Assembly: GCF_006345805.1 (NCBI RefSeq)
Contig: NW_021828191.1
Span: 1-9,002, forward strand
Direction of reading: 5' to 3'
Source of the DNA: Octopus sinensis
Lineage: Eukaryota
DNA: 9,002 nucleotides
The position numbers and the translations under genes were made by a program. Of the stretch, positions 1,195 to 5,376 are shown one piece after another (positions within the stretch are counted from its first letter, which is position 1; the number at the start of each line of letters is the position of its first letter). The notes below the pieces were generated by a model. That model searched no databases. It worked only from the letters and a program-made list of their open reading frames with translations, and was not told the DNA's origin.

Positions 1195-1250
1195 GCATTA
1201 TTTACCTTATTTACATTCGACGGATATTTGTCCTCACCTTGTTTGTTGTT

Positions 1251-1296
1251 AATACAACGTTTCGGCTGATATACTCTCCAGCCTTCATCAAGTGTC
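1251..1296 (-). ncRNA. Minimal type I hammerhead ribozyme motif, degenerate (C3U and one stem I mismatch)
   Basis: Minus strand reads GACAC-TTGATGA-A-GGCTG-gagagtatat-CAGCC-GAAA-CG-TT-GTATT. This gives stem I GACAC/GTATT, core (C>U)UGAUGA, a 5-bp stem II, GAAA, palindromic AACGTT in place of stem III, and a GUU cleavage triplet. Confidence 0.7.
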
Positions 1297-1344
1297 TTGG
1301 AGAAATTTCGAATCTTGGTTCTCATTCCTAAGGTATTTTTCGAT

Positions 1345-1410
1345 ATTATTATTATCATTATTATCATCATCTTCATCATTATTATTATTATTAGTAGTAG
1401 TAGTAGTAGT
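1345..1410. repeat. (ATT/ATC)n followed by (AGT)n trinucleotide microsatellite
   Basis: Read directly; it is the mirror image of the (TAA)n tract in the right arm. Confidence 0.9.
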
Positions 1411-1510
1411 ATTCAGGTCACTGCCTGGAATCGAACTCGGAATCTTGGGGTTAAGAGCGCGGGTTACTAACCCCAAGATTCCGAGATCGATTCCAAGCAG
1501 TGACCTGAAT
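1411..1510. repeat. Near-perfect 43-bp hairpin formed by two inverted tRNA-like heads, 14-nt loop
   Basis: Arms at 1411-1453 and 1468-1510 with 2 mismatches. The plus strand GGTTAAGAGCGCGGG-TTACTAA-CCCCAAGATTCCGAGATCGATTCC looks like a D-arm 3' side, anticodon arm and T-arm. An intact B box GAGTTCGATTCC lies on the minus strand of the left arm (1438-1427). Confidence 0.85.
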
Positions 1511-1511
1511 A

Positions 1512-1599
<88 letters not shown>
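1508..1599. repeat. (TAA)n microsatellite, 5' flank of the Dong-like element
   Basis: About 30 TAA units. Confidence 0.97.
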
Positions 1600-1601
<2 letters not shown>

Positions 1602-2298
1602 CAAAGCCCTGACCCATCAATGGCTAATGGCCTCTGGCTTAAAATCTGAAACAGAAGGGTTTATCATAGCAGCTCAAGATCAATGCCTACCAACAAGAAA
1701 CTACCAGGCCAACATATTAAAGAACGGCAGTAGCCCAACATGTGTATGTCGACAACAAAATGAAACCATTGATCATGTTGTCTCCAAATGCAGTCTTCTA
1801 GCGCCTACAGAGTACCTCAACAGGCATGATAGAGCTGCACAATATATTCACTGGGTAATTTGCAAAAACCTGGATTTGCCCCATGAAAAAAACTGGTGAG
1901 AACACAATCCAATGCTTGAAAATGACCACATCTCACTCCTCTGGAACTTCACCATTCAAACTGACAGAAAAATAGATGCAAATAGGCCAGACATCATATT
2001 GAAAGACTTCAGACAAAGAACATGCCTCCTCATAGATATGACTGTCCCAATCGATATAAACGTATCTGTCAAGACCTACCAAAAACTGAGCAAATATAAA
2101 GATCCTGAAATAGAAATCAGCAAAATGTGGAACCCGAAGACTAAAACAATACCTGTTGTCATAGGTGCCCTGGGAATGATAGCGAAAGGGGCTGATTGCT
2201 ACCTAAATCAGATACCAGGAAACCCCAAAATGGCAGAAATTCAAAAGATAGTGCTCATGGGAACTGCTCATATCCTACGCAAAATACTCTCTATGTAA
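1600..2298 (+). pseudogene. C-terminal fragment of an R4/Dong-type ORF (CCHC and PD..D/ExK RLE domain) with one premature stop
   Basis: DKALTHQWLMASGLKSETEGFIIAAQDQCLPTRNY...CVC-X8-H-X4-C (1741-1791), RHD (1822-1830), in-frame TGA (1897-1899), NRPDI (from 1981), IDMTVP, KLSKY, IPVVIGALG and GTAHILRKILSM*. ORFs 1627-1899 and 1912-2298 are in the same frame. Confidence 0.92.
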
Positions 2299-2507
2299 TC
2301 CCAAGGTTTAAAACAAACTTTTTTTTCTCTATTTTTTCTTTTTTTTATTTATTTATTAGACATTCACTAGTATAACAGAAAAAAAAACAACAAATATATG
2401 GCACACTAGACATAACAACAACGTGAACTTCCAACCTGTTGTCTCTTGAGGTCTCTGGGTGAGACTTGGAGCCAACTTGTACAAACATAAAGCAAAAGTC
2501 AAACATA

Positions 2508-2508
<1 letters not shown>
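1600..2508 (+). mobile_element. 5'-truncated R4/Dong-clade non-LTR retrotransposon (zinc knuckle, restriction-like endonuclease and 3' UTR)
   Basis: A single reading frame from 1600 to 2298 carries RLE-clade motifs, followed by about 210 nt of 3' UTR. Both ends abut (TAA)n, the known Dong target. Confidence 0.9.

Positions 2509-2560
<52 letters not shown>
2509..2560. repeat. (TAA)n microsatellite, 3' flank of the Dong-like element
   Basis: About 17 perfect units. Confidence 0.97.
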
Positions 2561-2608
2561 TCGAAAAATACCTTAGGAATGAGAATCCAGGTTCGAAATT
2601 TCCTCCAA

Positions 2609-2647
2609 GACACCTCATGAAGGCTGGAGCGTATATCAGCCGAAACG
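2609..2647 (+). ncRNA. Second hammerhead motif copy, inactivated (G5C, cleavage site deleted)
   Basis: GACAC-CTCATGA-A-GGCTG-gagcgtatat-CAGCC-GAAA-CG, followed by a duplicated AAGGCTGGAG instead of the TT-GTATT seen in the left copy. Confidence 0.6.
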
Positions 2648-2727
2648 AAGGCTGGAGGAAGATGAGGACAAATATCTGTCAAATGTAAATAATGCACATA
2701 ATTCTTCATCTCTTAAGTTTAGAACTG

Positions 2728-2820
2728 AAATGAGTATTAGTCATGTACTAAGGACAACTTAATCGACTTGCACCACCCCGAAATAGCTAACTTTGTGCGT
2801 TAGTTTGAAACTATTATTAC
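2728..2820 (+). mobile_element. 3' half of the split SINE
   Basis: AGTCATGTAC...TAATCGAC...TTATTA is collinear with AGTCAAGTAC...TAATCGAC...TTATTATTAT at 2961-3053. Confidence 0.6.
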
Positions 2821-2825
2821 AATGA

Positions 2826-3053
2826 GATAGCGAACCCGCAGAATTGCAGAATCGTTATCGTGTTAGACATAATGCTAGGTGGATTTTTTTCGGCGAAAGT
2901 TCAAATTCCGTTGAGGTTTACTTTGCTTTTCATCTTTCTGGGATTGATAAAATATATATCAGTCAAGTACCGTCGTCGAAGTAATCGACATCATTCCCGC
3001 CAATACTCAAAATTAGTGTATTTGAGCTAAAATTAGAAAAGAATTATTATTAT
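2826..3053 (+). mobile_element. Uninterrupted, diverged copy of the third-family SINE
   Basis: GCAGAATCGTTA, B-box-like AGTTCAAATTCC, TGAGGTT..TTTTCAT..GATAAAATA and an (ATT)n tail. Homologous to 1085-1194 joined to 2728-2820. Confidence 0.7.
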
Positions 3054-3559
3054 GAGGTTCATCACAATAATGGCCTTAACAGATAAACAGCCTATTATAA
3101 TGTTTTCAAACGGAAATATAGATAAAGAAATATTTTATGGAACAATCTGGCTAGTTGTTTAAACATGCAGAAACATATTTCTATTAAATATTTTTCAAAT
3201 TTCCCATGCCTCATTGGTGCCGTAAAATTTTAGTAAAAATTATGTTGAAGTAAGTTAGTTGCGCTGTCAATATTTTGCAGACTTCAGTAACTATTCCAAC
3301 AACAATAATATACTAGCGGGACTTTATATACACTTTATATACTTTACGCACATTTTTATAGACTTAATACAGAACACTCATAAAATAAATATTCACTCTT
3401 ATTTTTCTATTTTTTTTTTTCCATAAACTGAAAATATATATCTTGCACATATGATACAACCTTTAGTGAAATTTGAAATTGCATATATCCGCCACGTAAC
3501 TAAGCTTGAATATTTCGCTTGAATATGCGCTATATAAAAATACACTTTTCACTATCCAA

Positions 3560-4741: not shown

Positions 4742-4858
4742 TTAGCATATAGGCTGTCCACTTTTAGTGGTCAGTCCTCTAAATTTTGTATGTAACACAA
4801 TTTTTAATCTTCGGATTTTTTAAAATATACTAATATCAATTTCTACCCTTATTTAATT
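4742..4858 (+). repeat. Direct repeat, copy 1 (117 bp)
   Basis: TTAGCATATAGGCT..CACTTTTAGTGGTCAGTCCTCTAAATTTTGTAT...CCCTTATTTAATT matches 5238-5376. Confidence 0.92.
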
Positions 4859-5237: not shown

Positions 5238-5376
5238 TTAGCATATAGGCTATTCACTTTTAGTGGTCAGTCCTCTAAATTTTGTATATAACACAATTCT
5301 TAATCTTCGGATGTTTTTAAATATGCTAAGCCACTGGTTTTAATTGATTAATATCAATTTCTCCCCTTATTTAATT
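5238..5376 (+). repeat. Direct repeat, copy 2 (139 bp)
   Basis: Same sequence as 4742-4858 plus 22 extra nt, GCCACTGGTTTTAATTGATTAA. Confidence 0.92.

What the first reader, a model, noticed from the sequence alone, without database searches (positions are those of the whole stretch)
1251..1296. Two complementary-mutated copies reconstruct a canonical minimal hammerhead core
Seen: the left copy has TTGATGA and the right copy (2614-2620) has CTCATGA, so the simplest ancestor is CTGATGA. Both keep GGCTG/CAGCC stem II and GAAACG. The left copy continues TT-GTATT, which pairs with upstream GACAC at 4/5 positions including a G-U. There is an extra A between A9 and G10.1, an insertion known to be tolerated in the CChMVd hammerhead. 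Established: palindromic stem III (AACGUU) minimal hammerheads cleave efficiently as dimers. Inference: the family consensus is an active ribozyme cleaving after GUU, while both local copies are weakened or dead.
Basis: partly seen in the sequence, partly recalled or inferred. Interest (0 to 1): 0.7.

Follow-up and report, generated by a model that had tools for sequence, protein, structure and literature searches.

The report
Decayed hammerhead in tRNA-headed Penelope repeat
The motif is a real but damaged copy of the small, likely self-cutting RNA that Penelope-type jumping genes are known to carry in their end repeats; the less ordinary part is that this family's end repeat begins with a tRNA-derived stretch that likely acts as its promoter.

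Summary
Observation confirmed. The minus strand at 1296-1251 is a minimal type I hammerhead with C3U. The second copy (2609-2657, plus strand) has G5C and has also lost its cleavage site. The family majority has the canonical core; 3,500 genomic sites match the intact core and stem II exactly.

The ribozyme lies in the pseudo-LTR of an abundant Penelope/Poseidon-type retroelement (RT plus GIY-YIG), inside the first 70 nt of its ORF. The window holds one head-to-head pLTR pair, so the two copies are on opposite strands and cannot dimerise together. Such ribozymes are published; 'cleaves efficiently' is overstated. Copies decay neutrally (8 compensatory doubles against 9.2 expected). Rfam finds nothing, and RNA-seq shows no cut ends.

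Less ordinary: the pLTR starts with a tRNA-derived segment. Of 30 copies picked by that segment, 27 begin at its start, and the majority sense strand of the ORF has no T4 run. Pol III transcription is therefore likely but untested. I did not find this in print (four searches); this scan noted the same arrangement before on other DNA.

The parts
1251..1296 (-). Minimal type I hammerhead, left copy: stem I 5' strand 1296-1292, core 1291-1285 (C3U at 1291), inserted A 1284, stem II 1283-1279/1268-1264, GAAAC 1263-1259, GUU 1258-1256, predicted cut between 1256 and 1255, stem I 3' strand 1255-1251 (mismatch at 1253)
1196..1344 (-). Ribozyme-bearing part of the left pLTR, 94.6% to a fetched copy; ends in the 9-nt repeat (short 3' end)
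1323..1325 (-). ATG that opens the element's ORF in tandem copies, 34 nt upstream of C3; the ribozyme is read in frame
1345..1411 (-). (AAT)n-type linker of the left pLTR
1412..1453 (-). 3' half of the tRNA-derived segment, left copy (B-box-like motif kept, A box lost)
1449..1512 (+). 5'-truncated tRNA-derived segment, right copy; the head-to-head inversion junction is at 1449-1453
1508..1599 (+). (AAT)n linker of the right pLTR, first part
1600..2508 (+). 3' fragment of an unrelated non-LTR retrotransposon inserted in the linker (zinc knuckle and restriction-like endonuclease motifs; the R4/Dong label is recalled, not shown)
   Evidence: (zf-RVT, E 2e-4, under cut-off)
2509..2560 (+). (AAT)n linker of the right pLTR, second part
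2560..2727 (+). Ribozyme-bearing part of the right pLTR with the long 3' end (Penelope 'tail')
2609..2657 (+). Right hammerhead remnant: G5C; cleavage site and 3' strand of stem I replaced by a duplicated 11-mer

Best explanation
The site is a mutated copy of a minimal type I hammerhead motif in the pseudo-LTR of an abundant Penelope/Poseidon-type retroelement, and the window's two copies are the arms of one head-to-head pLTR pair that likely no longer cut. Shown: the element is pLTR - ORF (N-terminal domain, RT, GIY-YIG-type end) - pLTR; each pLTR is a tRNA-derived segment, an (AAT)n linker and about 185 nt holding the ORF's ATG and the ribozyme. Inferred: RNA starts at the tRNA-derived segment, probably from an internal Pol III promoter. 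The element's protein nicks AT-rich DNA and starts reverse transcription at two sites inside the ORF's 5' end. Copying to the RNA's 5' end gives the many solo pLTRs, often with an inverted piece. In master elements two same-strand ribozymes would pair through AACGUU and cut weakly after GUU, probably with protein help, removing the start codon; uncut RNA is the template, since copies run through the cut site. After insertion copies decay neutrally.
For: 3,500 exact core-plus-stem-II matches, control 0. Walking upstream reaches an RT/GIY-YIG-type ORF end (RVT_1 E 7e-7; 280 homologues at E<=1e-20). The ribozyme part lies directly upstream of the ORF start in 20 of 30 loci. Both pLTRs flank the ORF in L238, L240 and L241, and partly in L237, of 6 loci fetched; L238 has two same-strand ribozymes 2,885 nt apart. 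The ATG is in frame with the ORF in 11 of the 12 junction copies that keep both anchors, and relative P0004 starts with the same ribozyme-frame peptide. 3' ends are bimodal: 33 short and 32 long of 74. An inverted piece abuts the 5' end in 17 of 30. tRNA origin: best alignment score 63 to a genomic tRNA-Arg(TCT) against 35.6 +/- 3.2 for shuffles; ARAGORN at a lowered threshold of 54 against 2 of 540 shuffled. 27 of 30 copies start within -20..+12 of tRNA +1. No T4 run in the ~2,300-nt majority ORF, against 6 in 1.8 kb of another Penelope family.
Against: No cleavage was shown: no pile-up of read ends in three RNA-seq runs (unstranded). No within-family covariation: 8 double changes against 9.2 expected. 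Core positions are not clearly better conserved than flanks (3.0% against 4.9%, P=0.055). For Pol III: read depth shows no step at tRNA +1; the T4 deficit is weak (P 0.01-0.16 by four null models, two of them on a frame-broken majority); the start coincides with a palindrome that could itself stop reverse transcription; unchecked scan notes report fixed 5' starts in Penelope families without tRNA heads; an uncapped Pol III RNA would need an unexplained route to translation.
Confidence: 0.8

Rival explanations
1. The short copies are a separate Penelope-mobilised SINE (tRNA head plus pLTR tail), and the ORF-bearing element is only its helper.
For: Estimated copies drop from roughly 20,000 (tRNA segment) to roughly 1,000 (33-mer just upstream); small calibration samples. 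28 of 30 head-picked loci have the ribozyme part downstream.
Against: The tRNA segment is part of the ORF-bearing element: it follows the ORF end in 28 of 30 loci (the query held about 11 nt of the head) and occurs in both pLTRs of L238. The short copies look like run-off copies of one family.
Confidence: 0.12
2. The element is an ordinary Pol II-driven Penelope; the tRNA-like segment is an old SINE or tRNA insertion in its UTR, and 5' ends pile up because the palindrome at its start makes reverse transcriptase fold back or fall off.
For: A short palindrome spans -7 to +5 of tRNA +1, and 18 of 54 head copies start at its left edge. Palindromes at pLTR 5' ends and inversion junctions are reported for rotifer Penelopes (PMC3846280). 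Drosophila Penelope has a LINE-like internal promoter (PMC2377424). No depth step.
Against: A- and B-box-like motifs are kept in the majority; many starts fall at -3..+4 with no inverted piece; no T4 run in the majority ORF.
Confidence: 0.35
3. The motif is kept as protein-coding sequence or as a protein-binding fold and does not cut in vivo.
For: It lies in the ORF frame. Catalytic mutants did not affect Anolis Poseidon insertion in vitro, and no RNA-seq ends were seen at its cut site (PMC11167929). A downstream hairpin competes with stem I (probability 0.55 against 0.44 in an intact copy).
Against: Several unrelated families in this genome keep the same core with different paired stems (seen by eye, and the control count was as high as the real one, 218 against 235). 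The Anolis ribozyme does cut with protein.
Confidence: 0.25
4. The resemblance to a hammerhead is chance.
For: No Rfam hammerhead hit; folding z-scores only -0.8 to -2.0, and +0.05 for one longer stretch.
Against: Complete core, inserted A, G10.1-C11.1, palindrome and position in a pLTR match the published consensus.
Confidence: 0.01

Closest known systems
Minimal type I hammerheads in pLTRs of animal Penelope-like elements (Cervera and de la Pena 2014, PMC4209133; parts 1-2 of 4 read)
   Same: Core, base between A9 and G10.1, G10.1-C11.1, 4-5 bp helix I, palindromic 15.2-16.2, mostly solo copies, opposite-strand pairs 100-700 bp apart, tandem pairs about 3 kb apart.
   Different: Helix II is 5 bp plus a G-U (7-8 bp in Schistosoma). 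No tRNA-derived pLTR start is described in the parts read.
Poseidon element PAc of Anolis carolinensis (Frangieh et al. 2024, PMC11167929; parts 1-2 of 4 read)
   Same: pLTR-ORF-pLTR, ribozyme overlapping the ORF start, two RT start sites giving the tail, AT-rich targets. An Anolis protein (P0060) is 38% identical over the RT region; that it is PAc is my inference.
   Different: PAc's ORF starts at stem II, with the cut 26 nt after the start codon; here the ATG lies 34 nt before C3 and the whole ribozyme is coding. A tRNA segment is not mentioned for PAc in the parts read.
Schistosome Sm-alpha/Sj-alpha SINE-like repeats (review PMC6765202, passages)
   Same: Pol III promoter next to a type I hammerhead.
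   Different: Those are non-coding tandem units; here the unit is the end repeat of a coding element and the ribozyme is minimal.
Cassandra, Helenus and Ajax TRIMs (Kojima 2024, PMC10886601, passages)
   Same: Small-RNA-derived Pol III promoter inside a terminal repeat.
   Different: They are non-autonomous LTR elements without ribozymes; the paper argues that autonomous partners must use Pol II, whereas here the coding element itself carries the tRNA segment.
Animal non-LTR retrozymes (bioRxiv 10.64898/2026.07.22.740005; part 1 of 5 read)
   Same: Type I hammerhead, derived from Penelope pLTRs.
   Different: Retrozymes are tandem arrays; these copies are dispersed, solo or inverted.

Membership tests
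Minimal type I hammerhead of Penelope-like elements | Core CUGANGA / GAAA / UH in the family majority | tested here: met
   54 copies; 3,500 exact. Not met by either window copy.
Minimal type I hammerhead of Penelope-like elements | Base between A9 and G10.1, G10.1-C11.1 pair, palindromic 15.2-16.2, short helix I | tested here: met
   against the list
Minimal type I hammerhead of Penelope-like elements | Position in the pLTR of a Penelope-like element | tested here: met
Minimal type I hammerhead of Penelope-like elements | Covariation of stems | tested here: inconclusive
   None within the family at pair 10.3-11.3 (8 observed, 9.2 expected), as expected for neutrally decaying copies. Other families show different paired stems, by eye only.
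Minimal type I hammerhead of Penelope-like elements | Self-cleavage after H17 | not testable with these tools
   No read-end pile-up; those libraries are poorly suited to show one
Rfam hammerhead families | cmscan match | tested here: not met
   No hammerhead family up to E=10 in the window or in a near-intact copy
Endonuclease-bearing Penelope-like element, Penelope/Poseidon type | One ORF with RT followed by GIY-YIG | tested here: met
   RVT_1 hit. The endonuclease is read from motifs and from homologues, 5 of 120 of which carry PF01541; Pfam itself did not hit the endonuclease part. All fetched copies have stops or frameshifts.
Endonuclease-bearing Penelope-like element, Penelope/Poseidon type | Tandem pLTRs, inverted 5' copies, 30-40-nt optional tail | tested here: met
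Endonuclease-bearing Penelope-like element, Penelope/Poseidon type | Placement in the Poseidon clade on an RT tree | not tested
   Only pairwise identity and the absence of a linker zinc finger in the alignments
tRNA-derived SINE | tRNA-related head with A and B boxes, no T4 run on the sense strand | tested here: met
tRNA-derived SINE | Head absent from the autonomous partner (separate non-coding family) | tested here: not met
tRNA-derived SINE | Transcription by Pol III | not testable with these tools
   Indirect only; one search shows no depth step
Non-LTR retrozyme | Tandem arrays of short ribozyme units | tested here: not met
   One direct tandem pair (L046) among 30 position-ordered loci

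The most novel reading that the evidence does not exclude
An autonomous Penelope-like retrotransposon that is transcribed end to end by RNA polymerase III from a captured tRNA promoter in its pLTR, keeps its 2.3-kb ORF free of Pol III terminators, carries the whole hammerhead inside its coding sequence as a switch that removes the start codon, and sheds about 20,000 SINE-like solo repeats from the same promoter.
Probability: 0.25. Interest if true: 0.72.

Novelty: new variant of a known kind. Interest (0 to 1): 0.36.

Why it matters
The ribozyme itself is one more decayed member of a published class and matters little. The setting may matter more. How Penelope-like elements are transcribed and what their hammerheads do is open. 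A family whose start site is marked by a tRNA promoter, whose ribozyme is wholly coding and whose 5' and 3' copy ends are both sharply defined gives a simple test system. If Pol III reads the whole element, it would be a coding retrotransposon run by a polymerase thought to serve only short non-coding elements, and a direct route from an autonomous element to SINE-like copies.

Tried and rejected
Rfam: no hammerhead or tRNA hit in the window or an intact copy. ARAGORN at default: no call on the heads. Pfam GIY-YIG search of the genome found other Penelope families but not this one. Short-intron model (downstream ATG spliced into the ORF): no such joint listed, but only tens of reads cover the ORF junction and 8 joints were not shown; the in-frame upstream ATG explains the data without it. 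U3 as a propagated subfamily: rejected, 1 of 54 and 4 of 100 listed rows by hand count; the 5 of 42 are biased by the query. Compensatory subfamily: rejected. Loose pattern for sister ribozymes: 235 matches against 218 control, so no enrichment by count; no RNA holder listed on record; RNA runs laid were added by species label and may be another species. RNA reads cover the pLTR on both mate directions equally, so strand and start cannot be read. PDB and ESM Atlas gave no name for the inserted fragment. Two papers were not held: Lunse et al. was seen only as a title in a reference list; effects of U3-G8 and of G5 changes are recalled. Supplements were not read; the alignments in the supplement of PMC4209133 may list this family. 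Repbase and Dfam could not be searched.

Full report
1. Observation. The minus strand at 1296-1251 holds a hammerhead-shaped motif with U at position 3; the plus strand at 2609-2646 holds a second copy with C at position 5. Both keep stem II and GAAACG, and the left stem I pairs at 4 of 5 positions. Shuffles give 0.02 such sites per window against 2 seen. The right copy has also lost the cleavage triplet and the 3' strand of stem I to an 11-nt duplication. The window is a whole 9,002-bp contig of a 2.7-Gb animal genome.

2. Family. A DNA search gave 4,391 candidates, 40 scored. The intact core with stem II matches exactly at 3,500 sites, control 0; 12 of 88 independently picked copies match that pattern, so the family has roughly 25,000 copies. 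In 54 copies picked by other parts of the element, the majority is the canonical core with A or T at N7; 13 of 54 keep all 13 core positions; CpG sites differ in about 20% and other sites in 3-6%. C3U occurs in 1 of 54 and G5C in 0 of 54. At one stem II pair, single changes number 135 and 239 and the compensatory double 8, against 9.2 expected by independence. Rfam reports no hammerhead.

3. What carries it. Upstream of the ribozyme part lie an (AAT)n run and a tRNA-like segment. Walking further upstream reaches the end of an ORF with RT and GIY-YIG-type motifs. The ribozyme part also lies directly before the ORF start in 20 of 30 loci. Of 6 loci fetched whole, three show both pLTRs around the ORF and one shows a partial second repeat; L238 has two same-strand ribozymes 2,885 nt apart. 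An ATG 34 nt before C3 is in frame with the ORF in 11 of 12 junction copies that keep both anchors (of 30 loci), and an independent relative, P0004, begins with the matching peptide. 3' ends fall in two classes, 33 short and 32 long of 74, with 9 others, the Penelope tail signature. The window is a head-to-head pair of 5'-truncated pLTRs joined at 1449-1453, with a 0.9-kb fragment of another retrotransposon in the right linker. Because the two ribozyme copies are on opposite strands, they cannot form the dimer with each other.

4. The tRNA-derived start. The head majority aligns best with a genomic tRNA-Arg(TCT), score 63 against 35.6 +/- 3.2 for 300 shuffles (maximum 46); only the tRNA genes of 30 fetched loci were compared, so the parent tRNA is not settled. 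ARAGORN calls none at default and 10 of 54 at a lowered threshold, against 2 of 540 shuffled. Of 30 loci picked by the head alone, 27 begin within -20..+12 of tRNA +1, 3 run into the ORF, 28 have the ribozyme part downstream and 17 have an inverted piece at the 5' end. Exact counts of 1,313 (head) and 442 (33-mer just upstream), calibrated on 5 of 77 and 4 of 9 copies, give roughly 20,000 and 1,000 copies. The majority ORF has no run of four T, another Penelope family has 6 in 1.8 kb, and null models give P from 0.01 to 0.16. Against: read depth is about equal over the ORF end and the head, though the head is short and borders a skipped repeat; a palindrome sits at the same place; unchecked scan notes report fixed starts in families without tRNA heads.

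5. Mechanism. Shown: architecture, reading frame, end distributions, neutral decay. Taken from the Anolis Poseidon work (PMC11167929): nicking of AT-rich DNA, internal RT start, protein-assisted cleavage, uncut RNA as template. Inferred here: start of transcription at the tRNA segment by Pol III (about 55%), weak dimer cleavage in master elements, inactivity of the window copies. An intact copy folds stems I and II at -12.0 kcal/mol, the left copy's same fold at -6.4, and with flanks its stem I probability is 0.003. That G5 is essential and that U3-G8 impairs cleavage is recalled; C3G and G8C abolish activity in PAc. RNA-seq covers the pLTR at 2,000-3,000 reads against tens over the ORF start, equally in both directions, with no end pile-up; this fits passive read-through of many copies and shows neither cleavage nor its absence.

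6. Comparison and novelty. The ribozyme meets every sequence feature listed for Penelope minimal hammerheads (PMC4209133), and overlap of pLTR and ORF start is known. It is a new member of a known kind. A tRNA-derived segment in the pLTR of a coding Penelope element was not found in print (1 review; 0 papers; listings only); Repbase, Dfam and most subscription papers were not searchable. The nearest analogues are schistosome SINE-like hammerhead repeats and TRIMs with Pol III promoters. This scan reported the same arrangement in other genomes; I had reached the reading before seeing those notes.

7. Verdict. Observation confirmed, interpretation partly supported. The ribozyme is ordinary and dead or weakened here; the element is a variant of a known kind with one open, testable feature. 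Interest 0.36.

Noticed in passing
window 1600-2508; L008, L030 (same family); L004, L005, L014, L027, L038 (a related family): 3' fragments of restriction-endonuclease-type non-LTR retrotransposons sit repeatedly in the pLTR's (AAT)n linker, so the pLTR supplies their target.
   Followed up: partly
L065, L068, L077, L080, 570-940 nt after the ORF stop: Another Penelope family with a 780-aa open frame carries a hammerhead-like motif with the U3-A8 core variant.
   Followed up: no
L176-L205: Several further minimal hammerhead families with different stems I and II (for example L187/L193/L196, L179/L185, L176/L186/L200, L188/L204) occur in the genome.
   Followed up: partly
window 1258-1245, minus strand: A hairpin just downstream pairs with the cleavage triplet and competes with stem I in both intact and local copies; a possible off-switch.
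   Followed up: partly
L180: ORF end runs straight into (AAT)n and the ribozyme part with no tRNA segment; a deletion or a headless subfamily.
   Followed up: no
window about 140-320, 340-450, 560-760, 1120-1190 and 2898-2959: Other dispersed repeats, found in many fetched loci; some have A/B-box-like motifs and are probably SINEs.
   Followed up: no
window 4742-4833 and 5238-5329: Direct repeat of 92 nt, 92% identical, 496 nt apart.
   Followed up: no
L010 2463-2535: ARAGORN calls a tRNA-Glu(TTC) near an element copy.
   Followed up: no
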